Numbered from the stretch's first letter, positions 1 through 64,000 are shown. The stretch: 64,000 nucleotides of DNA from a virus (IMGVR_UViG_3300048589_000504:6609-70608); one strand, 5' to 3'. Translations and numbers: made by a program. Notes: generated by a model from the letters alone, not told the origin.

Positions 1-1355
1 AGCGCGAATACCATCCGGCAGCCAACATATTCCCGCTGATGCAAGGGGCGGAGTACGAAGACCTGAAAGCCGACATCGCTGCCAATGGCCTGCGGGAAGC
101 TATCTGGCTGCACAAAGACGGCCGTATCATCGACGGGCGTAATCGGCATAGGGCGTGTCTGGACACCGACACGCTGCCGCAATTCAGGACGTGGGGCGGG
201 AAAGGGTCGTTGGTGTCGTTCGTGGTGTCGCTGAACTTGCACCGGCGGCATCTGAGCAGCAGCCAGCGCGCGGCCGCGGCGATTGAAATGTTACCGCTGT
301 ACGAAGCTGAGGCGAAAGAGCGGCAAGTGACGCTGGCTGGTACGCGCCGGAACGATGAAGCAGACCTTCCGCAATTAATTGCGGAAGGTGCAACCGGTGA
401 AGCGCGCGACATTGTTGCGCAAGACTTCGGCACGAACCGGCAATACGTTTCCGACGCCAAGCGCCTGAACGAAGAGGCGCCTGACATTTTTGAGCGAGTC
501 AAATTAGGAAAGACCACAATCCCGAAGGCGAACAAGGAACTGAAAGAGCGCAATCAAGCCCCTCGTCATTTGACAATCCCCTCCCTCGCTGAAGAGATGA
601 TCGGCCTACCCGATCAAGAACGCTTCGAGCGGCTCGGCTGGGGTCTGCGCACATGGGATGACTGGCGCTTCGACAAGTGCGATGAACGCTTTGGCGACGA
701 CTGGCCCGGCCGCATTCCCGCGCAATTAGTCGCTCACACGCTGTTCTACTTTACTCGCGAGGGAGACAGAGTGCTCGATCCAATGGCGGGCGGCGGCGTG
801 GTGCCGGATGTGTGCAAGGTGTTCGGACGGCCGTGTGATGCCTTCGATCTGGCGACACGGCCGGAGCGACCGGAGATCCGTAAGCACGTCTGGAATCCGG
901 CGTCTCCACAGTGGCCCGCGGACACCGAGCCGCCGGACCTTATCTTCTTCGACCCGCCTTACTTCAGCAAGAAACAGAGCGAGTACGCAGACAAAGCCGG
1001 AGCCGGAGAAGTGCCGATCAGCGACCTTGACCGGCGCGCCTACCTGGACTTCTTTGCCCGCTTCTTCCGGCTGGCACGCGCACGATCCGGACATGGCACG
1101 CGCATGGCGTTTCTGAACGCGGATTGGCGCGACTTTCAGGGCACTCCCGCGGTTGATGAAGCGCACTATGAGGCGATCACGCTGCTGGATTACGCCGACC
1201 TGCTGAAGCGCAACGGCTGGAACATCACGCACCTGATCGACGCGCCGATGTCAACCGAACGCTTTAACGCCGGGGTTGTGTCAGCGATGCAAAAGCGGCG
1301 CATCCTCGGCGTCGTGCGCAGGACACTCATCATGGCGGTGGCGACGAATGACTAA
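1..1355 (+). CDS. ParB-N-like domain fused to amino-DNA methyltransferase (5' truncated by window)
   Basis: Frame is open from base 3 ([15 protein letters not shown]). ParB-N motif [11 protein letters not shown] and SLNLHRRHL; MTase motif [10 protein letters not shown] and motif IV FFDPPY. Confidence 0.8.
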
Positions 1356-2061
1356 CATCTGGTTCGTGAAGCACAGCGAAGTGCTTTACAAATTGCAGCA
1401 GTCCGGTATCAAGTATCCGACCTTCAAGCGCACCGGCATGCACATGCGCGACATCAATGCCGGATACAAAAACGCGCCGGTGATCCCGCTGCTGTATGGC
1501 TACGTGCAAACGCAAGGCCGCCTGCCCGCGCCGGAACTGTGCGCGCGCTGGCTGTACGATAACCACGCCGACGAAACAGAAAAGCGCACAGAGCGCAAAG
1601 AGGTTATCCAGCGCACGATCAAGCTGGTACTGGACTTCTATCGCGAGCTGCACACGTTCGGCCTGCTGGCATCCAATGACTTCTTTGGCGTGGTTCGTTA
1701 TGCCAAAGTTGACGACATCGATCTGGGCGTCGATTACACGGCCGAAGTGAGCGAGGCGCAGCAGCTCATCACACTGGACAAGATCGGCGTACAGGCGGCA
1801 ATCGGTGACGCCCGCGCCTACACGCGGGAAGGGTACTTTCAGCCGGTGAAGGCGGCGCGGAAACTGACACGTACCGGCGGCGCGCTGAAGTGGGACGGCC
1901 CAATCCACTGGCTGACAAATGAGTTTCGGCGCGCGGCCTACGAGCCGGTTAGCGGCACGTTGTTGTTCACTGAAGCGCACGTCGCCGATCTTGTCGAAGA
2001 GGTAGCCGGGCAAGGTATTGTGCGCACGGCCGTGCAAGCGGACGCGGACACGCCGGAGTAG
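1348..2061 (+). CDS. hypothetical protein, possible PD-(D/E)xK-type endonuclease partner of the methyltransferase
   Basis: ATG overlaps the MTase 3' end. DDIDLGVDY...IGVQ resembles a nuclease acidic motif. Confidence 0.45.
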
Positions 2062-2125
2062 GCGCAGGCATGAAAGCGTGCACAGGTGCAACAGGGTGCT
2101 AGGCACTCAAAGGTAAGGTATCACA

Positions 2126-2323
2126 ATGGAATTTGTTCAAAGCCCACTATTCACGATGTACCTGTTCGTTGGCGCATTGCTTGGCGCGGCGATTGTGGTG
2201 AAGAAGACCGGACGCGGCGACGGTCTTGGTTCCTGTCTGGCCTACGGCCTTATCGCCGCGCTTGTCTGGCCGCTGCTGCTGTTTCTGGCGATTATCGACA
2301 CGACCAGCAGACCGAGCCGGTAG
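2126..2323 (+). CDS. small membrane protein
   Basis: 65 aa with two hydrophobic segments; AAGG upstream. Confidence 0.55.
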   Translation: MEFVQSPLFTMYLFVGALLGAAIVVKKTGRGDGLGSCLAYGLIAALVWPLLLFLAIIDTTSRPSR

Positions 2324-2428
2324 CTCTCTTTTTTCGGCTTGCATGAAATGATGGATAATGGTAGAGAATGATGAAAAACCATGATATACTAAACGCAGCC
2401 AGACGCGGCCAGCATTAAAGAGAGGAAC

Positions 2429-2821
2429 ATGCCAACGTTACCGGACATTGAAGGGATTCCCGCCGCACAGTTCAAAACGAACGTCACCAAGCGCCTTCCG
2501 GCACTGGCTAAAGAGCATTATCCAGAGAATCAGCCGCGGCGCGCGGCAGTGCTGCGGCGAGCGCTGCAACTCGCGCCGGAAATGCCGGAACCGGCCTGGC
2601 GCATGGCCAGAGGCGAACACGTCTGGGTTGTCGATCCCAATTACGTCCTGCGCGTGTGGCGTCTGGCGAACAAGCGGTGGTGCTGTCAGTTGATTGGCGC
2701 GACCCCGCTCAGCAGCTACGTATGCTTGCAAGAGACAGCCAGCAGCGGCAAGGCACAACTGGAAGCATATCTGTTATGGCGGGCCGCAAGCGCGGCCATA
2801 TTCGACGCAGAGGCCGGGTAG
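2429..2821 (+). CDS. hypothetical protein
   Basis: GAGG SD; TGaTATACT -10-like element near 2382-2390. Confidence 0.6.
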   Translation: MPTLPDIEGIPAAQFKTNVTKRLPALAKEHYPENQPRRAAVLRRALQLAPEMPEPAWRMARGEHVWVVDPNYVLRVWRLANKRWCCQLIGATPLSSYVCLQETASSGKAQLEAYLLWRAASAAIFDAEAG

Positions 2822-2889
2822 GGATTGCATCATGAGAACGTTTGTGCTACCGTCACCGCGTCCGACATCCACGCATTTACCCCTCATAG

Positions 2890-2927
2890 AAACGGCCGTC
2901 AGCAGACCTCCTCTGACGGCCGTTTCG
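2890..2927. repeat. 14-bp inverted repeat built from two ACGGCCGT octamers
   Basis: GAAACGGCCGTCAG-N10-CTGACGGCCGTTTC, intergenic. Confidence 0.75.
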
Positions 2928-2956
2928 CATTTTGGGGCCGGAAATGGGGGTAGGCT

Positions 2957-17538: not shown

Positions 17539-20500
17539 GTGACCGCAGAACTCGCAATCATCGCCAAGCTGGAAGACAACGCAAGCAAGGGCCTTGCGTC
17601 TCTGGACGGCCAGCTGCGCGGGCTGGAAGGCGCGGGCGGTGTCGCGTCCAAGGGGTTCGCCAACCTTGAGACAGTGATGAAGGCGACCGCTGTGGCGGGG
17701 GTTGCGGCGTTTGCGGCTGTTGGCGCGGGTGCGATAAAGCTCGGCGTAGACGGTGTGAAAGCGTTCGCTGACTTCCAGGGCGGCATGAACGAAGTGTTCA
17801 CGCTTATGCCGGGCATGTCGCAGGACGCCATGTCGGCCATGAGCAACGACGTTCTCGCGTTCGGCCAGTCCATCGGTAAAACGTCTGACGAAATTATCCC
17901 GGCGCTGTATCAGGCTATCTCTGCCGGTATACCAGCAGAGAACGTGTTCACGTTCATGGAGACGGCGAACGCGGCGGCGGTCGGCGGCGTGACCGATCTG
18001 GAAACGGCCGTGGACGGTATCACGTCCGTGGTCAATGCCTACGGCGCTGAGACGATGAGCGCGGCGCAGGCCAGTGACTTGATGTTCACGGCCGTGAGGC
18101 TGGGCAAGTGCGTCACCGGCGACACGCGGGTACTACTCGCGGACGGCCGTTACGTGCGCATTGACGAGCTGGAAGAAGGCGCGGACGTGGTGTCTTATGA
18201 CGGCCGTACATTCCAGGTACGTCCGGCGACGTGGGTGGATCAGGGTACGAAGCCGACTGTGAAGCTGACCACACGCCTGGGCCGCGAGATCACCACGACA
18301 TGGAACCATCCCTATCTGGCGCACAAGAAAGGACGCGACATACGCTCCAATGCCCGGCCGGAGTGGACAAAGGTAAGCGACCTTGAAGTTGGCGACCGCA
18401 TTGCGGTGCCGACGGCGCTCCCCTACTTCGGTGACGTTGATGTGCCGGAACACGAAGCCGCGTTTCTGGGCTTGTGGCTTGCTGAGGGCGCTGTACAGAA
18501 AGGCTCCGCGAAGATAACCACCACGCTCTACGGCGACCAGATCACGACATGGGCTGACAAGTTCGGCTGCGTCGCCAACAACACTGACAAGCGCGAAGGC
18601 GCTGCTCCTGTTTACCAGTTCACGAAAGGTTACAGGGGCGGCCGTGAGCGCACACGGCCGCAAGAGCTGCTTATCGAGCTTGGCTTGGATGACGTGACAT
18701 CGGCCACGAAGCACATCCCTGAGCAGGTGTTTAGCTGGAAGCGTGAGCGTATCGCTACGATGTTGCACTGGCTGTTCAATGGCGACGGGTGGCTGAATGA
18801 CGTGAGGCAGCAAGGGCGCAGCGGCTTCCAGCTTGGCTTTTGCTCCAAGAGCGAGCAGCTAGTGCGCGATGTGAATCACCTGCTTTTGCGCTTCGGCATT
18901 GTGGGGCGCATTCGCCAACGTAAGGATGTCAATGCATGGGTCTGGGAAGTCAACCGGCACTATGAGATTTCGCGCTTCGTGCGCTTTATCGGTATCGACC
19001 GCCCCGCCGCCGAACGTGTCGCAATCCATGTGCCGGAAAAGCAAAAGGCAAGCTTCGACGTAGTTGAATACGACCGCATTGTCAGCATCGAATCCGGGCC
19101 AGAACAGCACGTTTACGATCTGTGTGTCGATGAGCTGCATAACTTTGTCGCCAACGACATTGTGGCCCACAACACCGACTTCAGCCAACTCTCCGCCTCC
19201 CTCTTCCAAGTCACGCCAACCGCCGCCGCCCTCGGTGTCGGCTTCGGTGATGTCACCGCCGCCCTGGCCAGCCTGACCGCGCAGGGCGTGCCCACCTCTG
19301 TCGCTACGACGCAGATGCGGCAGATGTTCATTGAGTTGAGCAAGGAAGGCGGCAAGACTAGCGCCACGTTCCAGGAGCTGGCCGGCCAATCGTTCAAGGA
19401 CTTCATCGCTTCCGGCGGTAACGTGGCCGACGCGCTGGAAATGTTGGAAGCATACGCCAAAGAAACCGGCGTCGGCGTAAACGATCTGTTCGGTTCAGTG
19501 GAAGCGGGCGCGGCGGCGCTGGGCCTCACCGGTTCCAGCATGGAAGGCTTCCGCGCCAACCTCGCGGCGATGGACGAATCGGCCGGAGCGACGCAAGCCG
19601 CTTACGAACAAATGAAAACCGGCATGCAGCTCGTCTTCGACATCATCGGCGCGACGGTTGACAACTTCAAGATTCGGATCGGCGCGGCGCTGGCTCCGTT
19701 CGTGGACGAACTCGCTCCGAAGATCGCTGCCTTTGCAGAGCAGGCCCTGCCGAAACTGGAAACGGCGTTCAAGGCGGTCACAGAGGTGATCGCGCTGTTT
19801 ACCGGCCTCGGTTCGGATTCCATTGACACGCTGGACAACATGCGCGACGTGCTGTTCGACCTGGGCATGACATCGCCCCAGGTGGATGCCCTGGAAACGG
19901 CCGTGCGCAACGTGGCCGACGCCATCAAGTCGTTCATCGCCAACCTGCAAGAGGGCATGTCGCCGATGGATGCCTTCATTGAGGCGATCTGGGATATGGT
20001 TCCGCTAGAGACCGCGATGGCCTTGGCGAACATACGTGATGGGATAAACAGCTTTATCGATGCGGTAAAAACAGCGGTAGAGCCGATCACCTCCTGGATT
20101 CAGGAGAACGTCAAGCTGCAAGACATCCTCGCCGTCATGGGCCTGGTTGTCGCGTCCGTTGTCCTACCCGCGCTGGCCTCGTTGCTGGTTACGGTTCTTG
20201 GCTTTATTGCGCCAATTGCGGCGCTCGTTCTCGCCGTCGCCGGACTGCGCGTCGCGTGGGAGAGTGACTTCCTCGGCATCCGCACGGCCGCTGAGGGCGC
20301 TTTCGAGTTCTTGCAAGGCGCATTTGAGTCGGTCAAGACGGCTATTGACACGTTCAAAACCGCAATGGCTGACGGCCTCGATCCGGTTGACGCGCTGCGT
20401 GAAGCTATAGGCACGTTTGGCGAAGACGCACAAGGCGTATTCGACAAGGTGATGGAAGCGGTCGGCAAGCTCACAGACTTCTTCGCGCCCACTATCGAGC

Positions 20501-45600: not shown

Positions 45601-45723
45601 GGTTGCACCTCCGTTGTGCACTGTGGGTCACGCTCAGGGATGGTGAGACATCGCCTGAGCACTTCGTTAATACACCCATAATTATAGCACGTTTGTTCGG
45701 GAAGATGAAGTAATTGACGGCTA

Positions 45724-46341: not shown

Positions 46342-46607
46342 CTTTTCACCGTGTACGTAGTAGTCGTACTCTTGCGCAGATCGTGTCTTTCGGCCGTGAC
46401 ACTGGCGACGTAGTGGTACATAAAGACACCATTTGCCAAAGGTACACCAGAGAGGTCAACTTCGCTGATCTTATATCCAGTCTTCTGCGAAAACTCAAAA
46501 CACAAGTCGCTTATCTGCTTAGCGAGTGCTGCCAGTTCAGATTGCACATCCAATTGCTCAGCAGTCGTTTCTTGTGTGTCTTTATCCTTGCTCATTGTCA
46601 TCTCCAC
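46338..46607 (-). CDS. hypothetical protein
   Basis: Coupled ORF in the leftward operon. Confidence 0.5.
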   Translation of the reverse strand: MEMTMSKDKDTQETTAEQLDVQSELAALAKQISDLCFEFSQKTGYKISEVDLSGVPLANGVFMYHYVASVTAERHDLRKSTTTTYTVKR

Positions 46608-47139
46608 TTACCAGTATAAGCCAGTCAATTTCGGGGAAGTAACAGAACCGCTGCACGTATCGCTCCCCGCTTTCGTCGCGCAGCGCAGTGCGCAGGATCG
46701 GCGCGGTGAGGGTGCGTCCTAGCGCTGCTGGCTGACTAAAATCAGGATCGGTATCTGCAAACCAATCATGGCTCACCGTCGGCGGCATCGGGAGATTGAT
46801 ATGGTTCAGATCGGGATCGACCCGGAGGCGTTTAACTTTCATGGCGGTCTGATATGACAGATACCTGTACAGAGCATATTCGGCGCGTGTCTTTTTGCCA
46901 AGAATCCAGTTGTTGACAATATCTACCCATTGGTAGAACGCAGCGCGAAAGTGACCGCAGTCGGCCTCAAAGGTGACTTTGCAACCGCCGCGCGCGGCGC
47001 AATATTCCCACACGATCTCTATGGTTCCTGTGTCTAGATCGGGAACGACAGTGCGCCACATCCAAGCCGGTATCTCTCTTTCAACACAGTCAATGGTTCT
47101 CTGTACCGGGTTCACCTTATCCCCCTGCTCCGACATCAA
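46582..47139 (-). CDS. hypothetical protein
   Basis: Coupled ORF in the leftward operon. Confidence 0.5.
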   Translation of the reverse strand: MMSEQGDKVNPVQRTIDCVEREIPAWMWRTVVPDLDTGTIEIVWEYCAARGGCKVTFEADCGHFRAAFYQWVDIVNNWILGKKTRAEYALYRYLSYQTAMKVKRLRVDPDLNHINLPMPPTVSHDWFADTDPDFSQPAALGRTLTAPILRTALRDESGERYVQRFCYFPEIDWLILVSGDDNEQG

Positions 47140-47410
47140 ACACCTTGCCGATGGCGTCGATTATCTCATTTACGCCAACGCCCTTTCTCTCGGCCATCTT
47201 GTTAAACTCGATTATGTACATGAGGTGTCTCGATCCTTCGTCGAACTTGCTTGTCCGCGCGAACAGAATCCATATGTCGCGCTGCAATAATTCAGGGCTG
47301 CTGCTGTAGTCGAATTGCGGGTTGGCGTAGAACCTGTTGCGCAGCTCGTCGTTGTCGATCATTTCGACGTAGGCGGTGAGCAGTTGGTCTAACATCATTT
47401 CTCCGGCCAT
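47117..47410 (-). CDS. hypothetical protein
   Basis: GGAG SD before ATG 47410. Confidence 0.45.
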   Translation of the reverse strand: MAGEMMLDQLLTAYVEMIDNDELRNRFYANPQFDYSSSPELLQRDIWILFARTSKFDEGSRHLMYIIEFNKMAERKGVGVNEIIDAIGKVFDVGAGG

Positions 47411-47739
47411 AGGTCCCATAGCTCCAATTGCCCTGCGTCGATCTGCCTCTGTCGCCGCGTCTGCGCCGCGTTCGCCGCGTGATAGGGCGCGTCGTAGGAA
47501 AGGTGACAAAGTTGACACATGGCACGAAGGTTGTCCAGATCGTTGTTGGTCGTGTCGTGATCCAGGTGCGCAGTCGTGAGCACAACCATACTACCGGTTT
47601 CGGGATGCGGCCGCCCATGCTCGGCGCGGCAGTCTGGGTACAGCGGCGATCCTTCGCAGCAGCCGCCCGCGCGCACGAAGCGGACGTAGTGGCTGAGTTC
47701 TTCCCAGTTGTCGGGATAGTCGGCGCGGTTCATTGGCAT
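47395..47739 (-). CDS. HNH-like endonuclease
   Basis: YPDNW...CEG..C...VLTTAHLDHD..NN...NLRAMCQLCH..YD. Confidence 0.8.
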   Translation of the reverse strand: MPMNRADYPDNWEELSHYVRFVRAGGCCEGSPLYPDCRAEHGRPHPETGSMVVLTTAHLDHDTTNNDLDNLRAMCQLCHLSYDAPYHAANAAQTRRQRQIDAGQLELWDLWPEK

Positions 47740-47742
47740 GGT

Positions 47743-48225
47743 TTACCCTTCCTCTACCTCATAACCGAGTGCACGAAAATCAGCAGCGGTCATGAACACG
47801 CTACCGAAAGGCCACGGTATCTCGGCAATCGGTTCATTATCCTTCGGGTAACACTTCGGGCAAACCCACGATAGATGACAGCCCTCGCCCCAAATGATTG
47901 TTGCCAGGCGCTGAGCCGCTTCACCACAGTCGGGACAAAAGACAAGCACGTCTTGCTCTCGCATCTCTTGCAGCTCCCGCTCGTGAAGCGCCTTATTACA
48001 CGCATCTCGCAGCGCCTCGATTTCGGTGCGTGCAAAGTAGCCGATAATACGGCCGTTGTAACCTGTGGGCGGCGGCGTCGCGAACACAACCGGCTTGGCT
48101 ACATACTCGCACCCATCCAGAGAGGCGCTGGCCCGCAGCTCGTACCTGCCTTCTTCATCGTTGTACCTGACATCGAACACGACATCGGCAGGCCAAAGGC
48201 TGCCTTGCTCATTTTCGTTGCTCAT
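47743..48225 (-). CDS. hypothetical protein with zinc ribbon
   Basis: CPDC and CPKC. Confidence 0.55.
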   Translation of the reverse strand: MSNENEQGSLWPADVVFDVRYNDEEGRYELRASASLDGCEYVAKPVVFATPPPTGYNGRIIGYFARTEIEALRDACNKALHERELQEMREQDVLVFCPDCGEAAQRLATIIWGEGCHLSWVCPKCYPKDNEPIAEIPWPFGSVFMTAADFRALGYEVEEG

Positions 48226-53876: not shown

Positions 53877-54095
53877 TTGAGCATGCAAACTGACATGGCG
53901 GCCGCCAACGAAGCCATGCTAGAGATTGCCGTCAACGCGGCTGCGGCCGGGCATGACCTCAGCGGCTTCGAGCCTGTAGAGGATGCGGACGGCCGTGCGA
54001 ACGGCTGGCAAGCACGGTGCAGGATTTGCGGCATGACCGCGTGGGTTGGTCTGAACGGAGTGCAATACAGCCTGTTAGAGGATGTTTGCGAATGA
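53877..54095 (+). CDS. small hypothetical protein
   Basis: GHDL...CRICG...C. Confidence 0.5.
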   Translation: MSMQTDMAAANEAMLEIAVNAAAAGHDLSGFEPVEDADGRANGWQARCRICGMTAWVGLNGVQYSLLEDVCE

Positions 54096-55759
54096 CAAAG
54101 CCGATCACCCGCAACACGCTCTTCTACGGCGACAATCTAGGCGTTCTGCGCAACTATGTGCCAGATGAGAGCGTTGATCTTGTCTATCTCGATCCGCCGT
54201 TCAATTCCAAGCGCACTTATAACGTCCTGTTCAAGCAAGAAAGCGGGGAAGAATCCGAAGCGCAGATCGCCGCGTTTGATGACACTTGGCACTGGGATCA
54301 ATCCACGGCCGCGCAGTATCACGAATTGATCACCGAAGCGCCCGATCATATCAGCCGCATGATCGGGGCCATGCGGGAATTCATCGGCACGAATCAGATG
54401 ATGGCCTATCTGGTCATGATGGCCGCCCGCCTGATCGAACTGCACCGCGTCCTCAAACCCACCGGCAGCCTCTACCTGCACTGCGACCCGACGGCCAGTC
54501 ACTACCTAAAAGTTGTCCTGGATACAATTTTTGAGCCGCAAAACTTCACAAATGAAATTATCTGGAAGCGCACAAACACGCACAATGATGCAACGACAAA
54601 GTTCCCAGATGTAGCAGATATTATCTTGCTATATTCAAAATCAAGAAAGAGCTTGTTTATTCCACAGCATTCAGAACATGATCCGAAATACATTAAGAAT
54701 TTTTATCGTCATGATGATAATGACGGACGGGGTCCATACACCTTAGATAATATGGCAAGTCCTAATCCACGCCCTAACATGATGTATGATTGGAAGGGCT
54801 ATCCATACCCAACAATGGGCTGGCGTTACCAGGAAGAAACGATGGCCAAATTGGATCAGGAAGGGCGAATTTATTATCCCAAAAACAAAGACGGTTCTTT
54901 TGACACCACCAAAAGGCTAAGGTTAAAGCGCTATCTACATGAGCAGCCGGGTCCAGTTATCGGGAACGTTTGGACAGATATATCCCCTGTATCTGCTCAT
55001 GCCACAGAGCGTTTAGGATACCCTACGCAGAAACCTATAGAACTTCTGGAACGCATCATCTCCGCCAGCAGCAACCCCGGCGACGTCGTCCTCGACCCGT
55101 TCTGCGGCTGCGGCACGACCATCGCCGCCGCCCAAAAGCTGGAGCGCCGCTGGATCGGCATCGACATCACCCACCTCTCGATCACGCTCATGAAATATCG
55201 CCTGCAAGAGATGTTCCCCGACGCCGAATTCGCCATCATCGGCGAGCCGGCCGACCTGGACGGCGCGCGCCGCCTGGCCGCGCAAGACCGCCACCAGTTT
55301 GAATGGTGGGCGCTGTCGCTGGTCAAGGCACGGCCGTCCGGCGGCGCAGCGGGCAGCAAGCGCGGCAAAAAAGGCGCGGACCAGGGCATCGACGGCGTGA
55401 TCACCTTCATCGACGACGCCGGCGGCGCGCCCAAACGGATCATCGTGCAGGTCAAAAGCGGCCACGTCAAAAGCGGCGACATCCGCGACCTGGCCGGCAC
55501 CATCGAGCGCGAGAAGGCCGCTATGGGGATATACATCACGCTTGAAGAGCCAACGAAGCCAATGATTACTGAAGCGGCTTCGGCCGGGTACTATCACTCG
55601 CCGGGCTGGAATCAAGACTATCCGCGAATTCAGATTCTAACGATCCGGGAGCTGCTCAACGGCGCGGCTGTAAAGATGCCGCCCGCAGGAATGACCTTCA
55701 AGCAAGCGGAGCGAGTGAAGGAATCGGGGGCAGTCCAGAAAGGTTTGTTCGATGGCTGA
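54092..55759 (+). CDS. N6/N4 DNA methyltransferase fused to Mrr-like endonuclease domain
   Basis: YLDPPFN, YPTQKP, VLDPFCGCGT; C-terminal FE...ADQGIDG...VQVKSG. Confidence 0.88.
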   Translation: MTKPITRNTLFYGDNLGVLRNYVPDESVDLVYLDPPFNSKRTYNVLFKQESGEESEAQIAAFDDTWHWDQSTAAQYHELITEAPDHISRMIGAMREFIGTNQMMAYLVMMAARLIELHRVLKPTGSLYLHCDPTASHYLKVVLDTIFEPQNFTNEIIWKRTNTHNDATTKFPDVADIILLYSKSRKSLFIPQHSEHDPKYIKNFYRHDDNDGRGPYTLDNMASPNPRPNMMYDWKGYPYPTMGWRYQEETMAKLDQEGRIYYPKNKDGSFDTTKRLRLKRYLHEQPGPVIGNVWTDISPVSAHATERLGYPTQKPIELLERIISASSNPGDVVLDPFCGCGTTIAAAQKLERRWIGIDITHLSITLMKYRLQEMFPDAEFAIIGEPADLDGARRLAAQDRHQFEWWALSLVKARPSGGAAGSKRGKKGADQGIDGVITFIDDAGGAPKRIIVQVKSGHVKSGDIRDLAGTIEREKAAMGIYITLEEPTKPMITEAASAGYYHSPGWNQDYPRIQILTIRELLNGAAVKMPPAGMTFKQAERVKESGAVQKGLFDG

Positions 55760-58596: not shown

Positions 58597-58768
58597 CCCT
58601 GCCCAGGCCGCGCAGAATGGCCGCTGCCGCGTCGAGGCGTAACAGCGGCATAATTCCTTAGATCGTTGCGCCACTCTCTTTTTAAGGGTATTGTATACAA
58701 CGTTTACAGAGTTACGCCTGTATCCGGCAGAAACAGGCGTAGACAATGCACATAATAGGGAGATACCT

Positions 58769-59575
58769 ATGGCGAAAATCTACGCAGTAATGAACAGAAA
58801 AGGCGGCACCGGCAAGACGACGACGGCGATTGCGTTGGCGCAAGGGCTGGCCCGCCGCCGCTACGAGGAAGGATACACCGGTGATACGGCCGTGCTGCTG
58901 GTGGACCTTGACCCGCAAGGGCACGTTGCCGGTTCGCTCGACCTGGACACCGGCGGCCGCTGCCTGAGCCAGTTCTTTCTTGACCGATCCAACTATGGGC
59001 GCGTGCTTATGCGCGCCGCCAACGAAAGCCATGCGCGGCGTGGCATGTGGGTTGTTCCAGCTACCGATAACTTGACCGAGGCGAAGCGCGCCTTGATTGT
59101 GAATGGAAAGATCGACGACGCGCTGGAATGGGCACTTGGCGAAACGCGCAAGCTCTTTGAGTACATCGTGCTCGATTGCCCGCCGACGCTGGACTTCCTT
59201 CAGACGGCCGTCTATCGCTTTGCCGATCTCGCCGTCGTGCCGGTACGTGCCGACTACCTGTCGCTCAATGGCGCAATGCAGCACACGCGCGACATCGTGG
59301 CCGCGCAGCAAGCGGGCAGCAAGATCGCGATCAAGGCGCTTGTCCCGACCTTCTTCGACACGCGGATCAACCAATGCAGCGCAGTGGTGAGCAGACTAAT
59401 CGAGGTGTACGGCCGTGACAAGGTGACAGTACCGATTCCGAGCACGATCCGCGTGGCCGAAGCACCGGAGTATGGCATGACAGTATTCGAATACGCCGAA
59501 AGCCGGAGCAGCGACAACATGGCCCAGATCGCGGCAATGGCCTACAACAGGGTAGTAGAGAGGGTGATGATATGA
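58769..59575 (+). CDS. parA: ParA/Soj-family partition ATPase
   Basis: NRKGGTGKTT, LVDLDPQG, IVLDCPP, RVAEAP.G; GGGAG SD. Confidence 0.92.
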   Translation: MAKIYAVMNRKGGTGKTTTAIALAQGLARRRYEEGYTGDTAVLLVDLDPQGHVAGSLDLDTGGRCLSQFFLDRSNYGRVLMRAANESHARRGMWVVPATDNLTEAKRALIVNGKIDDALEWALGETRKLFEYIVLDCPPTLDFLQTAVYRFADLAVVPVRADYLSLNGAMQHTRDIVAAQQAGSKIAIKALVPTFFDTRINQCSAVVSRLIEVYGRDKVTVPIPSTIRVAEAPEYGMTVFEYAESRSSDNMAQIAAMAYNRVVERVMI

Positions 59576-59895
59576 GCAGTGACGACATTGATAACGCATT
59601 GGGCAGCATTGCAAACCGAGCGCCAGGCTCACGCATCGGCAAGGAAAAGGTAGAGCAGCCGGTCGCGCGGCAGGCGACGCGCACGACCGAGAAAACCATC
59701 GTCTATTCTGTGCGCCTACCGGAAGCATTCGCTGCGCACACCCGGCAGATCGCGAAGCAGTTCGGGATCAGCGAGGCCGAGGCGAAAAGGGCGATCATCT
59801 ATCGGGGAGTGCAGGCGTACATGATTGACAAAGAGCAGCTCGAAACCGAGTTCACCACCAAAGTCGTAGCAGTACGGCCCAGCGATCTAGCCTAA
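59572..59895 (+). CDS. putative ribbon-helix-helix centromere-binding partner of ParA
   Basis: ATGA-coupled to parA; flexible N-terminus then YSVRLPE...IAKQFGISEAE. Confidence 0.6.
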   Translation: MSSDDIDNALGSIANRAPGSRIGKEKVEQPVARQATRTTEKTIVYSVRLPEAFAAHTRQIAKQFGISEAEAKRAIIYRGVQAYMIDKEQLETEFTTKVVAVRPSDLA

Positions 59896-59924
59896 CCCAG
59901 CCACATCCGCGATCCCGTCCCTGA

Positions 59925-59954
59925 TTGACAGATCGTGTATACATGATTTACAAT
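59925..59954 (+). promoter_or_regulatory. promoter with third operator copy
   Basis: TTGACA-N18-TACAAT; ATCGTGTATACATGAT at 59932-59947. Confidence 0.75.
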
Positions 59955-59973
59955 AACTAACAGAGAGGTTACG

Positions 59974-60417
59974 ATGACACTTTACACAACAAAGGATCAG
60001 GAGCAGGGTCGCATGACACGAGACTTAAACCGCCGCGAGCGGGCCGAGGCTATGGCCGCTTACGCGCAGCGGATTGTGCGCGTCGAGCCGTACCCGCCGG
60101 AGGTGGAGGCGTTAATCGCCAAAGCGATGACCGAGCACGACTTCGATACCCGCCTGTCGGCGCTGCGCTTTCTCGAAGCTGCCGGTCGCCTTGACAAAGG
60201 CTTCCGCGTCGGCGGCAAGATCGCCAATTACGACGAGGCGGTGAAGGCGCTGATGGGTAAGTTCGACTGCACCAAAAAGACCGCGCTGAAGCATGTACGT
60301 GAGGCGGCGATGGTTGCCCAACATCCGAGCTACGAGCCGAGCATCGCCAACTGGGGCGGCGTGCGGCGCGGGGATGGGTGGCCGCCGGAGACTGTCGCAG
60401 AAGATGAAGGGCCTTAG
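59974..60417 (+). CDS. hypothetical protein
   Basis: GAGG SD; own promoter and terminator; ends WGGVRRG.G.P. Confidence 0.6.
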   Translation: MTLYTTKDQEQGRMTRDLNRRERAEAMAAYAQRIVRVEPYPPEVEALIAKAMTEHDFDTRLSALRFLEAAGRLDKGFRVGGKIANYDEAVKALMGKFDCTKKTALKHVREAAMVAQHPSYEPSIANWGGVRRGDGWPPETVAEDEGP

Positions 60418-60426
60418 ACCAAAACA

Positions 60427-60456
60427 AAACAAGCCACCTTTGCGGGTGGCTTGTTT
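60427..60456. terminator. intrinsic terminator
   Basis: AAACAAGCCACC/GGTGGCTTGTTT. Confidence 0.7.
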
Positions 60457-60713
60457 GTTACCTGGGTAGTTAGGCCAGGATTTTGAGTACGAGACAGTGA
60501 GCCGGGAGGCCCACAGTCAAGAGCAATCTCATCATAGCAGTTGCTCATTTCCATGTCAACTATCGGTTAATGGTTCAGGATGTTTACAAAGGTTCGGCAG
60601 AGGTTTACAATGTGCCATATCCTTTCGCGAATTCACGCGAAGTTAATGGGTACGTTACCGACCTTCCGGCCATCATTGCGTTTTTGATCGCAGCAGGGAA
60701 AGGGACGACGTTG

Positions 60714-60947
60714 ATGTTACGAGATGCAAGCGAACAGAGTTGGCCGGTAGATCGACCGGAAGGCAGCAGTGGTATCGTGCGGATCGCATCCGCGCAGCAA
60801 GCGATCATTCTGGAGCTGGTCAATCTCGTCGAAGAGGGCGTGTGCGATGACCGGGCCGAGGCGCGGCTGCGCGAGTTGGTGGTTGCGAGCAAGGAGGTGC
60901 TGACGCTGGTCGCGGAGGCGCTACAGACGTGTTACGAGCAAAGATAA
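60714..60947 (+). CDS. hypothetical protein
   Basis: AAGGGA SD; start uncertain. Confidence 0.4.
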   Translation: MLRDASEQSWPVDRPEGSSGIVRIASAQQAIILELVNLVEEGVCDDRAEARLRELVVASKEVLTLVAEALQTCYEQR

Positions 60948-61025
60948 AAGCGCCGGGTAGTCCGGCGCTGGTCGCAGGCGGCTGGTCGGACAAACAAGCC
61001 GCCACACGAATGAGAGGGGTATAAC

Positions 61026-61793
61026 ATGAAGATTTTATTGCTGGATAATCAGATCGGGTTTCGGCGCGCGCTGGCAGATTATTTGACTAGGCACGGCTAT
61101 CTGGTCGATGCGCAGGACACGACCGCGAGCGCGCTTGCGGCGCTGGCCGCGAGTGGCGACGAGGGTGGGGAACCCTTCGGCCTGGCGATTGTCGAACCGC
61201 ACACGAACAAGCGATTTTTGACGGAAGCGCAAGAGATGGCGCCTGGCCTGCCGATTTTGGTCGTGACCGGCGAACCGGACTGGAAAGCGGGCGTGGACTA
61301 TCTGACGGCCGGTTACGTCGATGCCTACCTCTCCAAACAGGACCCGGAGCTGCACGACCGGCTGCTCAGTTGTATTCAGGACACGGCCGTGCGCATGTCC
61401 TTCGATGGATGGCAAGTGGACATGGAGACATACGAGATCACGTATCACGGCCGTCCAATCGAACTGACCCAGATGCAGACAGTCATCTTTGCCCATTTCG
61501 TGCGCAACCCGCGCAGGCGCATCGGTTACGAAGAGATCGCCCGCGTGACCGGCAAGGACCCGGACACGCTCGCAGCCGCCCGCGTCAAGATGGCGGCAAC
61601 GATGAGCAACATGCGCGCACGACTGGCAGAGCAGGCCGGTTACGAGGTAATCAGCAGCGTAATCCGCATGGGCTTCAAGATCATGCCCGCACCGGTTGAT
61701 GGAAGCGAGAGCGAGAGCGCCGCGGCCGGTGAAGCGGCCGGGCAGAGTGAGGCGGCTGGGGAGCGAGGCGGCGCGGAGAGGGTGAAGGTCTAG
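61026..61793 (+). CDS. orphan OmpR-like response regulator with atypical receiver
   Basis: MKILLLDN, LAIVEP, PILVVTG, AYLSK; winged-helix IELTQMQ...MSNMRARL...IRMGFKI. Confidence 0.8.
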   Translation: MKILLLDNQIGFRRALADYLTRHGYLVDAQDTTASALAALAASGDEGGEPFGLAIVEPHTNKRFLTEAQEMAPGLPILVVTGEPDWKAGVDYLTAGYVDAYLSKQDPELHDRLLSCIQDTAVRMSFDGWQVDMETYEITYHGRPIELTQMQTVIFAHFVRNPRRRIGYEEIARVTGKDPDTLAAARVKMAATMSNMRARLAEQAGYEVISSVIRMGFKIMPAPVDGSESESAAAGEAAGQSEAAGERGGAERVKV

Positions 61794-62099
61794 GGAGATC
61801 ACAGTCACTATCTGGACGGCTGCTGTTAATCGATGTACTATAACATTTCACATGGTTTTGTGTGGTTTTCTGATATTTGGCGAGATTGCGGCGGTGAGGC
61901 GCCTGTTGCGTGATGGGCACAAATGGATATGATCCAGCGAGAGAGCAGGTAAAACAGCCTGCAAAGCAAAACGACGATCCGCTACCTGCCCTGGTTTTTG
62001 ATCGTCGAATTCGCTTGAGTGATGTATTGCCGCAAAATCCGGGTGAAAAACCTGGGGTTTTCGTGTTCCTGAGCGGCAAATTGTTAGGAGAATTGTAGC

Positions 62100-63107
62100 A
62101 TGGATACGGCAACGGTCAAGAGCATTGAAGACGTTTGGCAGGATACGCTTAATGAATTGAAGCTACAGATGACGCGGGCGACGTTCGACCAGTGGCTCGC
62201 GTCATCTACGGCCGTCCAGTTGTGGGGCAATGAGCTTACCATTACTGTCGTCAACGAAATGGCGCAGGACTGGCTCATGCACCGGCTGCGGGACACGATA
62301 GAGCGCACGCTGAGCGCAGTAGCGGGGGAGGCTATGACAATCAAGATCGTTACCAGAAGTGATGTGGAGCAGGAGGCGCTCTTGCGCATGCCGCCGGTGG
62401 CTACGGTGGTTTATGACGCGACGCTGACAAGGCATCAGCCACCGCCGCCGCCCGCGCCGAACGATCCGGCGGTGTACGGCCGTTCGGACGCGGAGCTGCG
62501 CGCAAGCATAGAGGCGCGCAGGAACGCGGGTATGAATGGCAGCCAGAGCGGACATCTGAATGGCAGCGGCAAGGGCCACCAAATCGAGGATGACGACGAA
62601 ATAACCATCACGCGCAGCGAAGAGGGTGATCCAGACGCAGCCTTTATGCAGATCGGGCATTACGCGGTTCGGTTCTGGCGGCCGTATCTGGGGCGCACGG
62701 CATTTGATTTGTGGGAGGTGCTTACCACCTACCAGTACGGCATGGAAAACTGGAAAGAGAAAGCGCCGCACAACTCGACCCTTCTGCGCAAGATAGGAAT
62801 CCAGAATCGGCAATCGCTGGAAGAGGCGATCATCGACTTGGAACGTGAAGGTATTTTTAGCTTCCGGCGCGAGATGAAAGACGACGATCCACGTACCGCG
62901 AAATGCTACTATGACGATTTCAAGCCGCTGGATGTTCGCTATGGCGGCGGCCGGCTGCTGAGCTATGAGCAGCACCTGCGCCTGACGCCCCCGGACCAGA
63001 AAGAGCACATTCGTTATCTGAAGAAGTACGTCAAGAAAGGCCGGTTCGACATGCGGGCCTGGCGCAGCGGCGCGCCGCGCAGCCAGTGGTTGATCGAGCG
63101 TGAATAG
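62100..63107 (+). CDS. replication initiator with DnaA domain I and C-terminal HTH-like domain
   Basis: VWQDTLNELKLQMTRATFDQWL...QDWLMHRLRDTIERTL; YAVRFWRPYLG; iterons follow. Confidence 0.75.
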   Translation: MDTATVKSIEDVWQDTLNELKLQMTRATFDQWLASSTAVQLWGNELTITVVNEMAQDWLMHRLRDTIERTLSAVAGEAMTIKIVTRSDVEQEALLRMPPVATVVYDATLTRHQPPPPPAPNDPAVYGRSDAELRASIEARRNAGMNGSQSGHLNGSGKGHQIEDDDEITITRSEEGDPDAAFMQIGHYAVRFWRPYLGRTAFDLWEVLTTYQYGMENWKEKAPHNSTLLRKIGIQNRQSLEEAIIDLEREGIFSFRREMKDDDPRTAKCYYDDFKPLDVRYGGGRLLSYEQHLRLTPPDQKEHIRYLKKYVKKGRFDMRAWRSGAPRSQWLIERE

Positions 63108-63172
63108 GTTGGATTTCAGGTGTCTGAAACAGGATCGAATTGACAATGACTACGCGCAAACGTGAACGCTAG

Positions 63173-63345
63173 ATGTTACATCCTACGTACACGTTTAGAA
63201 TGTTACATCCTACGTACACGTTTAGAATTTCAAATGTTATACGTGGTGTACACGTTTGGATCAGATGTTACACCTGACGTACACATTTACAGATAAAAGA
63301 AATAAAAGAAATAAAGGTGCAAAAGAAAGTTGTTATCTTTTTCTT
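63173..63345. repeat. iteron array plus AT-rich tract: putative replication origin
   Basis: ATGTTACATCCTACGTACACGTTTAGA twice exactly (63173, 63200) plus degenerate copies at 63234 and 63265; ATAAAAGAA repeats at 63293-63315. Confidence 0.8.
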
Positions 63346-63372
63346 TTGCGTTGAAGGCGAGGCGAACTAAAA

Positions 63373-64000
63373 ATGACAGCGACGACGACACAAGCAGACA
63401 AGCCCGAACATGCGGCGGCGATCCACCCGCTTGCAAACCATACGGCCGTGTTGCATAATGCGCTCATGGATCTGTCCGAACTTTACGGAGCCAGAGACGC
63501 GGCCGATTATGCGGGCGTGAGTTTGCCGACGCTGCGCCATGCGGTTCAGGGAGGGACGCTGGAACCGATAGCCCTGAGCCAGCGCGTCTATGCCGACGGC
63601 CGTGTCTACCCGTATGGCTTCGTGTTCACGCGGCGGATGCTGGACGCCTGGCGCGCCGACGGCCGTGCCGCGCCGACCGAAGACGAGCGGCGGCAGGTGT
63701 TCAACAGCGCCGGAGCCGCCGAGTATCTGGGCATTTCGGTGGATGCGCTGAAGCAGGCGTATCATGTGCGCGGCTCGTTGGCGGGCCGGAACATCGGCGG
63801 GGCGGTTGTATTCCTGCTGCGCGATCTAATCGCCTACAGCGAACGCGAACGGCCGTCCGGGCCGGAGCATCCGCGCGCGCTGTTCAGCGCCGAGCAAGTG
63901 CGCGAGATGCGTGAGCTGTACGAAAGTGGCGTGACCATCCGCGAGATCGCCAACCGCATGGACCTCGACGCCGACCTCACCACGATCCACGGCGTTGTAT
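63373..64000 (+). CDS. multi-HTH (excisionase-like) DNA-binding protein, 3' truncated
   Basis: Frame open to the window end: YGARDAADYAGVSLPTL, FNSAGAAEYLGISVDAL, GVTIREIANRM. Confidence 0.7.
   Translation, partial: MTATTTQADKPEHAAAIHPLANHTAVLHNALMDLSELYGARDAADYAGVSLPTLRHAVQGGTLEPIALSQRVYADGRVYPYGFVFTRRMLDAWRADGRAAPTEDERRQVFNSAGAAEYLGISVDALKQAYHVRGSLAGRNIGGAVVFLLRDLIAYSERERPSGPEHPRALFSAEQVREMRELYESGVTIREIANRMDLDADLTTIHGVV

What the first reader, a model, noticed from the sequence alone, without database searches (positions are those of the whole stretch)
118..63856. Highly iterated palindrome ACGGCCGT, a HIP1-like octamer saturating the phage genome
Seen: I counted about 88 exact ACGGCCGT by hand (e.g. 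118, 827, 2892, 2916, 10642, 18143, 27224, 43401, 52394, 63849), one per ~730 bp. Base composition (~60% GC, estimated) predicts about 2. It occurs in several reading frames (TAV, xGR, RP), in genes on both strands, inside the intein and in intergenic DNA, so it is not a protein-level motif. Known: cyanobacterial HIP1 (GCGATCGC) is a comparable 8-bp iterated palindrome linked to methylation of its core. Inference: this is an analogous system with a CGGCCG core in a non-cyanobacterial host (probably Chloroflexota), imprinted on the phage by long residence. It may be generated by methylation-directed repair or used for recombination or nucleoid binding.
Basis: partly seen in the sequence, partly recalled or inferred. 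Interest (0 to 1): 0.85.

Follow-up and report, generated by a model that had tools for sequence, protein, structure and literature searches.

The report
Iterated palindrome ACGGCCGT in a phage
A temperate phage carries the 8-letter palindrome ACGGCCGT about 50 times more often than chance, because it is the genome-wide "signature word" of its host group (one order of Chloroflexota bacteria), a counterpart outside cyanobacteria of the still unexplained HIP1 repeat.

Summary
ACGGCCGT occurs 89 times in the window and 99 times in the 70.6-kb phage, against about 2 expected. It is a DNA-level word. It lies in all three frames, on both gene strands, in spacers and in an intein. Synonymous shuffles give 9-11 coding copies against 82 observed, and the word has also changed protein sequence (TAV 44 against 12).

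The same word saturates one order of Chloroflexota at 1.1-2.2 copies per kb (38 of 101 genomes sampled). It is rich in only 2 of 301 genomes sampled phylum-wide. Four sister genomes carry TGCCGGCA instead.

New here: host chromosomes have a strand-symmetric G-rich scar beside every copy. Five phage genomes, this one included, have the word at host-level saturation with almost no scar.

No methyltransferase tracks the word, so the mechanism remains open. My best guess is a sequence-specific conversion process that acts on any replicon in these cells.

I found no paper describing such words outside cyanobacteria. This scan has noted the word before on other DNA (39 notes in at least 35 genomes).

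The parts
118..63856 (.). 89 exact copies of the palindrome ACGGCCGT. There are 10 more in the 6.6 kb of the phage upstream of the window.
   Evidence: One search lists all positions. Searches give 99 copies in the 70,608-bp genome.
2892..2923 (.). The closest pair of copies (starts 24 bp apart). Both lie between my gene calls.
   Evidence: smallest spacing 24.
18004..18207 (.). Cluster of four copies (18004, 18088, 18143, 18200) in the tape-measure gene. The last two are inside the intein.
   Evidence: One search places Intein_splicing and LAGLIDADG_3 at residues 199-545 of the 17539-24174 product, about 18133-19174.
45982..48048 (.). The longest stretch without the word (2,075 bp from start to start), in the minus-strand lysogeny block.
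   Evidence: Random placement gives a mean longest gap of 3,640 bp.
17539..24174 (+). Tape-measure gene carrying the homing-endonuclease intein. This is context and shows that the word is also written into a selfish insert.
   Evidence: PhageMin_Tail 5.5e-19, Intein_splicing 9.2e-17, LAGLIDADG_3 2e-10.
54017..55759 (+). Phage DNA methyltransferase of the beta class (DPPF motif) with a C-terminal Mrr-like domain. This is context, and no link to the word is shown.
   Evidence: the best solved relatives are adenine-specific type III Mod and CcrM-like enzymes.
39..1355 (+). Phage protein whose C-terminal half is a methyltransferase (DPPY motif). I read the N-terminal part as ParB-like by eye only. 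This is context, and no link to the word is shown.
44605..45621 (-). Tyrosine integrase, which is evidence for a temperate life style. It holds copies of the word on the minus-strand gene block.
   Evidence: Phage_integrase 1.8e-23. (copies at 44785 and 45013).
58691..63107 (+). ParA-type ATPase (58691-59575) and an initiator with DnaA domain I (62100-63107). Together they look like a plasmid-type maintenance module, so the phage may also reside as an episome.
   Evidence: AAA_31 8e-27, CbiA 1.1e-14, DnaA_N 8.4e-10.

Best explanation
What it is (about 0.9). ACGGCCGT is the highly iterated palindrome of one order of Chloroflexota. The genomes carry labels such as Ardenticatenaceae, Promineifilaceae, Ca. 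Leptovillus, Ca. Leptofilum and Anaerolineae. The phage carries the word because it replicates in members of that group. The word is held at the DNA level. It takes nearly every place where the protein allows it, and it has also forced amino-acid changes.

How it works (inferred, about 0.45). Host cells have a sequence-specific conversion process. I picture a factor that recognises the octamer and near-octamers and biases replication-coupled mismatch correction, or short-patch gene conversion, towards the perfect palindrome. This is in the spirit of Elhai's model for HIP1. The process acts on any replicon in the cell, so chromosomes and phages reach the same equilibrium saturation. A change in the factor's specificity would explain sister lineages with TGCCGGCA.

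The G-rich scar on the 5' side of each chromosomal copy is made by a second, slower or chromosome-specific process at long-lived sites. Phage DNA turns over too fast, or is not a substrate, so it carries bare words.

Shown: the abundance, the DNA-level nature, the host clade, the equal saturation, and the separation of word and scar. Inferred: the conversion mechanism and the factor.
For: Abundance and specificity.
- 89 copies in the window and 99 in the genome, against about 2 expected.
- Only the full octamer is enriched and its two flanks are coupled.

DNA level.
- All three frames, spacers and both gene strands carry it.
- Synonymous shuffles give 9-11 copies against 82 observed.
- 38 of 44 TAV, 33 of 43 [DYHN]GR and 11 of 22 xRP[SCFYLW] peptides are spelled with the word.
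- TAV occurs 44 times against 12.3 +/- 3.6 expected. [DYHN]GR occurs 43 times against 13.6 +/- 3.6. The reversed tripeptides are at expectation.

Host clade.
35 of the 120 loci hold at least 1.4 copies per kb, and all 35 carry Chloroflexota-type labels.
- Five whole genomes hold 8,294-14,879 copies, against 50-202 of the reversed word.
- 38 of 101 genomes of that order have at least 1 copy per kb and 14 are intermediate.
- Only 2 of 301 genomes are rich in the phylum-wide sample.
- Observed/expected of the 64 palindromic 6-mers correlates between phage and host sample (Spearman 0.62, P 4e-8).

Same equilibrium in phages and hosts.
- The word's share of ACNGCNGT is 0.89 in this phage, 0.88-0.96 in four other phages and 0.89-0.91 in two host samples.
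- Other phages hold 1.56-3.47 copies per kb over whole records. Two of them have direct terminal repeats.

One-letter variants. They sit mainly at letters 1 and 8, in the phage (3-13 copies each, against 0-3 for inner letters) and in host loci. Elhai 2015 reports the same for HIP1 (PMC4390886, abstract and passages).

Alternate word. G319, G321, G338 and G375 hold 4,560-8,850 TGCCGGCA and only 21-132 ACGGCCGT.

Word and scar are separable.
- Host 5'-flank GC skew is 0.26-0.36 at 0-10 bp and 0.18 at 10-25 bp.
- The five phages show 0.03-0.10 and 0.02-0.04.
- In the hosts, the bare CGGCCG core and four other palindromic hexamers show skews between -0.07 and +0.05.
Against: No recognising factor was found.
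- Vsr: 0 of 5 word-rich genomes.
- C5 methyltransferase: 2 of 5.
- The order's conserved 664-aa methyltransferase is present in 33 of 38 rich, 12 of 14 intermediate and 39 of 49 poor genomes, so it does not track the word.
- The Dam-like enzyme found in 5 of 5 is close to E. coli Dam (3e-88), so it probably reads GATC.

A pure mutational drive predicts random spacing. This phage is over-even (CV 0.74, P 0.002, no gap above 2,075 bp), which hints at selection. The other four phages are not over-even (CV 1.01-1.10).

In four phage-to-phage protein alignments at 31-66% identity, 4 of 7 copies of this phage sit at the same column and phase in the relative. Across all 17 alignments the query parts hold 12 copies, the subject parts 15, and 4 are shared. 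That fits purifying selection as well as repeated conversion.

I could not name the host species. A capsid homologue was found in only 1 of 101 genomes of the order, at 31% identity. There was no near match among 50,697 phage records.

Most host genomes are metagenome bins, so absences are weak.
Confidence: 0.5

Rival explanations
1. Self-mark mimicry. The word is read by a host system that treats word-bearing DNA as its own, for example a recombination or repair signal in the manner of Chi, or a mark that spares DNA from a nuclease. Phages of this clade are then selected to carry it at chromosome-like density over their whole length.
For: The phages have host-level density and saturation without the chromosomal scar. 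This phage has over-even spacing and no word-free stretch above 2,075 bp, against a random mean of 3,640 bp (P 0.002). Copies are shared at homologous positions between diverged phages (4 of 7). The sign of the host scar, with the strand running 5' to 3' into the word being G-rich and slightly T-rich, is what I would expect if that strand is often single-stranded, as on the 3' tail left at a Chi-like site. That last point is my inference from recalled knowledge.
Against: No RecC was found (0 of 5). The PDDEXK_1 hits lie in open frames of 179-285 aa, apart from one 981-aa frame in G001, so none looks like a typical AddAB subunit, which I recall as about 1,100-1,200 aa. AdnAB was not tested. Saturation of nearly all synonymous opportunities (75-86%) is far more than a spacing requirement would need. 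The other four phages and both host samples have random or clustered spacing (CV 0.96-1.18). The scar decays within about 50 bp, much shorter than a resection tract.
Confidence: 0.28
2. Uptake-sequence drive. The word is preferred by the DNA uptake or transformation machinery, as now proposed for HIP1. It accumulates because word-bearing alleles are taken up and recombined more often, and resident prophages or episomes are swept along.
For: The density of 1-2 copies per kb is like that of known uptake sequences (recalled). ComEC is present in 5 of 5 word-rich genomes. PMC13756078 (abstract and passages) argues that HIP1 acts as an uptake sequence, and it cites methylation-dependent gains in transformation.
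Against: The ComEC family also matched in 10 of the 14 control genomes, so its presence says little. The drive needs recombination with word-bearing homologues, which phage genes rarely have. Two word-rich phages have direct terminal repeats, and IMG/VR classes only one of the five records as a provirus. Known uptake sequences are not palindromes (recalled). This reading gives no account of the scar or of its absence in phages.
Confidence: 0.1
3. Passive amelioration only. The phage spent a long time as a prophage, and the host's general mutation bias wrote the word into it along with every other host signature.
For: The phage has an integrase and a plasmid-type module. Its palindromic 6-mer profile resembles that of a host sample (Spearman 0.62).
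Against: The host's word-linked flank scar is missing although the word is at host-level saturation. Even the record that IMG/VR classes as a provirus lacks the scar. Phage GC is 59.5%, against 52-54% in the two host samples.
Confidence: 0.07
4. Artefact of coding or of a repeat family. The word would be a by-product of codon or dipeptide bias, of a conserved peptide, or of a dispersed repeat such as a miniature transposon. Alternatively it would be a restriction site kept only where a flanking base shields it.
For: Expectations from Markov orders 5 and 6 come close to the observed count. Other notes of this scan read TGCCGGCA in some phages as a shielded restriction site.
Against: Shuffles that keep every protein and the codon pool give 9-11 copies against 82. 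The word uses three frames and spacers. Bases beyond the 8 letters are not conserved in the phage. CGGCCG is not purged outside the word: 99 further copies, where the order-0 expectation for all CGGCCG is 48.5. GGCC is at expectation, 616 against 550.
Confidence: 0.02

Closest known systems
HIP1 (GCGATCGC), the highly iterated palindrome of cyanobacteria (Elhai 2015, PMC4390886; Xu et al. 2018, PMC5861425; Rodriguez-Cruz et al. 2026, PMC13756078)
   Same: Both are GC-rich 8-letter palindromes. The density here, about 1,400 copies per Mb in the phage and 1,100-2,200 in hosts, falls in the 300-2,700 per Mb that Elhai gives for HIP1. Observed/expected under a second-order Markov model is 27.5, within the 15- to 300-fold that Xu reports. 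Both are dispersed without conserved flanks, lie in genes in every frame, show one-letter variants mainly at letters 1 and 8, spread across a clade, and are replaced by other words in some lineages.
   Different: The word, the core (GGCC or CGGCCG, not GATC or CGATCG) and the phylum differ. No cognate methyltransferase was identified. Host copies carry a strand-symmetric flank scar. The case here is a phage genome, and the word 'phage' occurs 0 times in the main text of both Elhai 2015 and Xu 2018.
Alternate HIPs of cyanobacteria, such as CAGGCCTG with a GGCC core in Synechococcus PCC 6312 (PMC13756078, passages)
   Same: Both are palindromic octamers built round GGCC that replace the usual word in one lineage. 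The TGCCGGCA genomes of the same Chloroflexota order are the parallel case.
   Different: The flanking letters differ. In cyanobacteria GGCC is a known methylation target (M.Ssp6803II), and nothing comparable is shown here.
DNA uptake sequences (DUS of Neisseria, USS of Pasteurellaceae); recalled, not from a call
   Same: A short word at about one copy per kb throughout a genome, specific to a clade, possibly spread by a drive rather than by benefit at each site.
   Different: These words are not palindromes and have a known receptor. No uptake bias has been tested here.
Chi sites (recalled)
   Same: An over-represented 8-letter word that marks DNA as the cell's own for a recombination nuclease. 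Phages can profit from carrying it.
   Different: Chi is asymmetric and oriented with replication, and it is about ten times rarer. RecC was not found in 5 of 5 host genomes.
Restriction-site avoidance in phages
   Same: The same phage strongly avoids many 6-letter palindromes. Eight have 0 copies where 5-48 are expected, and the same words are scarce in the host sample.
   Different: ACGGCCGT goes the opposite way, and its core is not avoided.

Membership tests
Highly iterated palindromes (HIP1 type) | A palindromic octamer that is the most abundant 8-mer of the genome, tens of times over expectation | tested here: met
   99 copies make it the top 8-mer. Observed/expected is 50 under order 0 and 27.5 under order 2. 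The next palindromic octamers have 15 copies.
Highly iterated palindromes (HIP1 type) | Dispersed single copies, not part of a longer repeat | tested here: met
   No base is conserved beyond the 8 letters in the phage. Every 5-kb bin holds 4-9 copies.
Highly iterated palindromes (HIP1 type) | Independent of codon use and of protein motifs, and present in all frames and in spacers | tested here: met
   Frames are 38, 33 and 11. Seventeen of the 99 copies touch spacers. Synonymous shuffles give 9-11 copies against 82.
Highly iterated palindromes (HIP1 type) | One-letter variants biased to the first and last letter | tested here: met
   Outer variants have 3-13 copies and inner variants 0-3 in the phage. 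The pooled host loci show the same.
Highly iterated palindromes (HIP1 type) | Shared by a whole clade, with other words in exceptional lineages | tested here: met
   38 of 101 genomes of one order are rich and 4 carry TGCCGGCA. Only 2 of 301 are rich across the phylum.
Highly iterated palindromes (HIP1 type) | Orphan methyltransferases that recognise the inner core co-occur with the word | tested here: inconclusive
   C5 methyltransferase in 2 of 5 and Vsr in 0 of 5. The 664-aa methyltransferase does not track the word, and the Dam-like enzyme probably reads GATC. Specificities cannot be read from sequence.
Highly iterated palindromes (HIP1 type) | The word is methylated in vivo | not testable with these tools
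   This needs native long-read or bisulfite-type data.
Highly iterated palindromes (HIP1 type) | Non-random, quasi-periodic spacing (Xu 2018; periods of 18-94 kb) | tested here: inconclusive
   A 70-kb phage cannot show such periods. Neighbour spacing is over-even here (CV 0.74, P 0.002) but not in four other phages or two host samples.
DNA uptake sequences | Uptake bias through a competence machine | not testable with these tools
   Only ComEC presence was checked. It is in 5 of 5 genomes, and the family also matched in 10 of 14 control genomes.
Chi-like recombination signal | A RecBCD or AddAB type helicase-nuclease that reads the word | tested here: not met
   RecC in 0 of 5 genomes. The PDDEXK_1 hits lie in frames of 179-285 aa, apart from one 981-aa frame in G001. 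AdnAB was not tested.
Dispersed repeat element (REP or miniature transposon) | Conserved sequence beyond the core, mostly between genes | tested here: not met
   82 of the 99 copies are inside genes and the flanks are not conserved.

The most novel reading that the evidence does not exclude
The octamer is a clade-wide mark of 'own DNA' that a still unknown cellular system reads. Phages of these Chloroflexota must copy it at chromosome-like density and without long gaps in order to replicate. The strand-symmetric scar on chromosomes would be the footprint of that system's repeated action at each site (nicking or breaking, with one strand exposed), a footprint that short-lived phage DNA never accumulates. 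If so, iterated palindromes, HIP1 included, would be read-out sites of a DNA transaction and not mutational debris, and phages would be the natural experiment that separates the word from its footprint.
Probability: 0.25. Interest if true: 0.85.

Novelty: new variant of a known kind. Interest (0 to 1): 0.7.

Why it matters
HIP1 has been unexplained for three decades, and every paper I could find treats such words as a cyanobacterial matter. A second system that uses a different word, in an unrelated phylum of abundant wastewater and soil filaments, allows comparison. Whatever genes or processes are shared by the two systems become candidates for the cause.

The phage adds two things. First, the word is a sharp signal for host prediction, placing an otherwise unmatched phage in one order. 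Second, phages carry the word without the chromosomal flank scar. This shows that gaining the word and scarring its flanks are separate processes, and it gives a handle for asking whether the word is driven or selected.

Tried and rejected
Protein-level or codon artefact. Rejected by the shuffles, the frame counts and the spacer copies.

Independent enrichment of 6- or 7-mers. Rejected by the NCGGCCGN table and the coupling of the two flanks.

Shielded restriction site, a reading taken from other notes of this scan. Rejected, because CGGCCG and GGCC are not purged outside the word.

Word-linked skew in the phage, a lead from note e1-2970683. Not found in the phage: 0.03 +/- 0.03 at 0-10 bp. 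It is strong in the hosts.

Search for close relatives or a prophage, to name the host.
- No megablast match among 50,697 phage records for window 1-20000.
- No portal relative in IMG/VR.
- A capsid homologue in 1 of 101 genomes of the order, at 31% identity.
- No tRNA in the window.
- The -1 base preference of the phage (A 13%, C and G 33% each) is nearest to a few bins such as G004. That is too weak to name a host.

Methyltransferase tracking.
- C5, beta-class N6/N4, D12 and N6_Mtase families were looked up in five rich genomes.
- The only candidate present in all five besides the Dam-like enzyme is a 664-aa alpha-type enzyme. Its profile over 101 genomes does not follow the word.

Literature. 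Searches found no description of ACGGCCGT as an iterated word, nor of any iterated palindrome in Chloroflexota. All 12 papers listed since 2019 for the phrase 'iterated palindrom' (13 hold it) concern cyanobacteria or use it as a typing primer. Tables there (for example in Elhai 2015 and Xu 2018) might list other phyla.

Papers seen.
- PMC4390886: abstract start and passages.
- PMC13756078: abstract start and passages.
- PMC5861425: abstract start and passages.
- PMC8093824: one passage.
- PMC6105098 and 10.1101/2024.09.10.611283: search listing only.

Unpublished genomes. The tallies include G043, G150, G178, G232 and G277. Those include G335. Without them the tallies read 2 of 296 and 38 of 100.

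Full report
**1.

One search finds 89 exact copies of ACGGCCGT in the window, from 118 to 63856. Dinucleotide-preserving shuffles give 1.69 on average and never more than 6 (0 of 100 reach 89).

The window is bases 6609-70608 of a single 70,608-bp virus record. The record holds 99 copies, one per 713 bp, at 59.5% GC. ACGGCCGT is the commonest 8-mer of the genome. The next ones are words that overlap it, and the commonest unrelated 8-mer has 39 copies. Among the 256 palindromic octamers the runners-up have 15 copies.

**2. It is the whole octamer, and it is a DNA-level feature**

- In the NCGGCCGN table, A..T has 99 copies and the other 15 combinations have 0-15.
- Each of the 18 inner one-letter variants has 0-3 copies. 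The six outer variants have 3-13.
- The A and T flanks are coupled (99/29/20/50, Fisher P 2e-11).
- Observed/expected is 50, 27.5 and 13.8 under Markov orders 0, 2 and 4. It shrinks to 2.9 and 1.3 only at orders 5 and 6, where the sub-words are themselves mostly made of the octamer.

With my own heuristic gene calls (80 genes, 86% of the genome), 82 copies lie in genes and 17 touch spacers. That is 1.35 against 1.72 copies per kb. The three frames hold 38, 33 and 11 copies.

Shuffles that keep every protein and the codon pool give 8.95 +/- 2.87 copies (pooled) or 11.28 +/- 3.01 (per gene), with a largest value of 21, against 82 observed (500 shuffles each). Shuffling codon order gives 2.55.

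Where the protein allows the word, it is nearly always used. That holds for 38 of 44 TAV, 33 of 43 [DYHN]GR and 11 of 22 xRP[SCFYLW].

The proteins themselves have been bent. TAV occurs 44 times against 12.3 +/- 3.6 expected, and [DYHN]GR 43 times against 13.6 +/- 3.6. The reversed tripeptides are at expectation.

**3. The phage**

- Structural and packaging genes: portal, prohead protease, HK97-type capsid, large terminase, and a 2,211-aa tape measure.
- A protein with a lysozyme (glycoside hydrolase family 25) domain.
- Residence genes: tyrosine integrase, antirepressor, ParA, and an initiator with DnaA domain I.
- Two DNA methyltransferases whose catalytic motifs are DPPF and DPPY. By the rule I recall, these point to adenine and not cytosine. 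The best solved relatives of the larger one are adenine-specific enzymes.

**4. Where the word comes from**

The loci fall into two groups.
- 35 hold at least 1.4 copies per kb. All 35 are labelled Chloroflexota, Chloroflexi/Chloroflexia, Anaerolineae/Anaerolinea, Ardenticatenaceae, Ca. Leptovillus or Ca. Leptofilum.
- The other 85 are mostly actinomycetes and hold only 3-9 copies.

Five of these genomes hold 8,294-14,879 copies genome-wide (1.55-2.09 per kb), against 50-202 copies of the reversed word.

In an even sample of the phylum, 2 of 301 genomes are rich and the other 299 have at most 471 copies, below 0.1 per kb. Many have 0-3 copies where the reversed word has hundreds, so the same word is purged elsewhere in the phylum.

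In a sample of the order that holds those five genomes, 38 of 101 have 1.11-2.18 copies per kb, 14 have 0.2-1 per kb and 49 have fewer. Four genomes of that order (G319, G321, G338, G375) instead carry 4,560-8,850 copies of TGCCGGCA. That word is also a palindrome and is the base-by-base complement of ACGGCCGT, so it serves as an alternate word, as in cyanobacteria.

These tallies include six unpublished genomes, all word-poor. Nothing rests on them.

**5. Other phages**

The same pattern scan of IMG/VR gave 19 loci, of which 6 are truly rich. Five whole records hold 1.56-3.47 copies per kb, against 1-7 copies of the reversed word. Two of them have direct terminal repeats and one is classed as a provirus.

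This phage shares a few genes with them at 31-66% protein identity. In four phage-to-phage alignments, 4 of 7 of this phage's copies sit at the same column and phase in the relative. Across all 17 alignments the counts are 12 and 15 copies, with 4 shared. The sample is small.

**6. What is new here: word without scar**

For each copy and each strand I measured the composition of the 5' flank.

| Distance from the word | Host samples G002 and G004 (400 kb each, unbiased) | Five viral genomes |
|---|---|---|
| 0-10 bp | 0.36 and 0.26 | 0.03-0.10 |
| 10-25 bp | 0.18 and 0.19 | 0.02-0.04, within about 2 standard errors of zero |
| 25-50 bp | 0.06 and 0.08 | -0.02 to 0.01 |

- In the hosts, G is about 50% at positions -3 and -4. 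One host (G002) also has A at -1 in 59% of flanks.
- In that host the 5' flank is also slightly T-rich (AT skew -0.125 at 5-10 bp and -0.047 at 10-50 bp). This is not seen in G004 inside 25 bp.
- All 24 host bins for which I held a locus show a 0-10 bp skew of 0.10-0.65.
- In the hosts the scar belongs to the full octamer. Bare CGGCCG and four other palindromic hexamers give skews between -0.07 and +0.05.
- This phage gives 0.032 +/- 0.029 at 0-10 bp and shows no preference at -3 or -4.
- Yet the word's share of all ACNGCNGT is the same in both groups: 0.89 in this phage, 0.88-0.96 in the other phages and 0.89-0.91 in the hosts.

So the word is at host equilibrium in phage DNA while the scar is not. 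The two are made by different processes or on different time scales. Simple co-amelioration during long residence does not explain the phage.

**7. Spacing**

This phage is over-even. CV is 0.74, against 0.98 +/- 0.10 for random placement (P about 0.002). The longest gap is 2,075 bp, against a random mean of 3,640 bp. The other four phages (CV 1.01-1.10) and the hosts (0.96 and 1.18) are not over-even. I leave this as a modest, unexplained point.

**8. The search for a mechanism**

| Family or protein | Result |
|---|---|
| C5 methyltransferase | 2 of 5 rich genomes |
| Vsr | 0 of 5 |
| RecC | 0 of 5 |
| PDDEXK_1 (AddAB nuclease domain) | frames of 179-285 aa, apart from one 981-aa frame in G001 |
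| ComEC | 5 of 5; the family also matched in 10 of 14 control genomes |
| Dam-like enzyme with a neighbouring PD-(D/E)XK nuclease | 5 of 5; close to E. coli Dam (3e-88), so probably reads GATC |
| 664-aa methyltransferase | 84 of 101 genomes of the order |

The 664-aa enzyme has motif I before a long middle region and then a DPPY motif. It occurs in 33 of 38 rich, 12 of 14 intermediate and 39 of 49 poor genomes. It is missing or only faintly matched in the four TGCCGGCA genomes. So it is old and conserved, but it does not track the word. No enzyme specificity can be read from sequence, and methylation itself cannot be tested with these tools.

**9. Reading**

With about 0.9 confidence, this is the clade's iterated palindrome carried by one of its phages.

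For the mechanism I favour a sequence-specific conversion process that acts on every replicon in the cell (about 0.45). My reason is that phages and chromosomes share the same near-complete saturation, which reaches into amino-acid changes and into a selfish intein.

Selection on phages to mimic a self-mark comes second (about 0.28). It is supported by the missing scar, by the even spacing here and by shared positions between diverged phages.

Uptake drive, passive amelioration and artefacts rank lower.

**10. Comparison with what is known**

Every structural criterion of HIP1-type words that I could test is met. The methyltransferase criterion is open. Elhai 2015 and Xu 2018 do not mention phages in their main text. 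My eight literature searches found no iterated palindrome described outside cyanobacteria, but subscription journals and supplementary files were not covered.

Within this scan the word has been noted before on other DNA: 39 notes in at least 35 genomes. Those notes include its presence in phages, a longer AACGGCCGTT form and the scar. What I add is the quantified contrast between phage and chromosome and the statistics for this phage.

Noticed in passing
G319, G321, G338, G375 (same order as the word-rich genomes): These four genomes carry 4,560-8,850 copies of TGCCGGCA and only 21-132 of ACGGCCGT. TGCCGGCA is the base-by-base complement of ACGGCCGT and is itself a palindrome, so it acts as an alternate iterated word in sister lineages. 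A few IMG/VR contigs are also enriched in it, for example L177 at 2.2 copies per kb.
   Followed up: partly
whole phage genome; host sample G002: Many 6-letter palindromes are strongly avoided. GGGCCC, CCCGGG, GTCGAC, CTCGAG, GAGCTC, GGTACC, ACTAGT and TTTAAA have 0 copies where 5-48 are expected. CTAG has 40 copies against 255 expected. The profile over all 64 palindromic hexamers correlates with that of a host sample (Spearman 0.62).
   Followed up: partly
window 18133-19174, inside the tape-measure gene 17539-24174: An intein with a full LAGLIDADG homing-endonuclease domain sits in the tail tape-measure protein (Intein_splicing 9.2e-17, LAGLIDADG_3 2e-10).
   Followed up: partly
phylum sample, (for example G077: 0 copies against 645 of the reversed word; G059: 4 against 504): Many other Chloroflexota have almost no ACGGCCGT in 4-6 Mb. 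The word that one order multiplies is purged elsewhere in the phylum, as if it were restricted there.
   Followed up: no
L132:1405-3399 (-) and its orthologues (G001:C2:1844469-1846460 and others): A 664-aa orphan DNA methyltransferase with motif I, a middle region of about 380 aa that contains a Cys-rich stretch, then DPPY. It is distantly like DUF1156-type enzymes. It is conserved at 51-89% identity in 84 of 101 genomes of the order. Its target is unknown.
   Followed up: partly
L203:1483-2793 (+), and the other four rich genomes: A Dam-like methyltransferase is present in 5 of 5 word-rich genomes. In the one locus I read, it is followed directly by a PDDEXK_11 nuclease gene. This is a possible MutH-like or restriction partner.
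   Followed up: partly
window 38150-40981: The phage's 943-aa protein with a GH25 lysozyme domain shares a domain of about 300-450 aa (38-46% identity) with host genes. In six genomes those genes lie next to the 664-aa methyltransferase gene. This is a weak extra link between the phage and this order.
   Followed up: no
whole phage; Spacing of the word is more even than random in this phage only (CV 0.74, P 0.002, no gap above 2,075 bp).
   Followed up: partly
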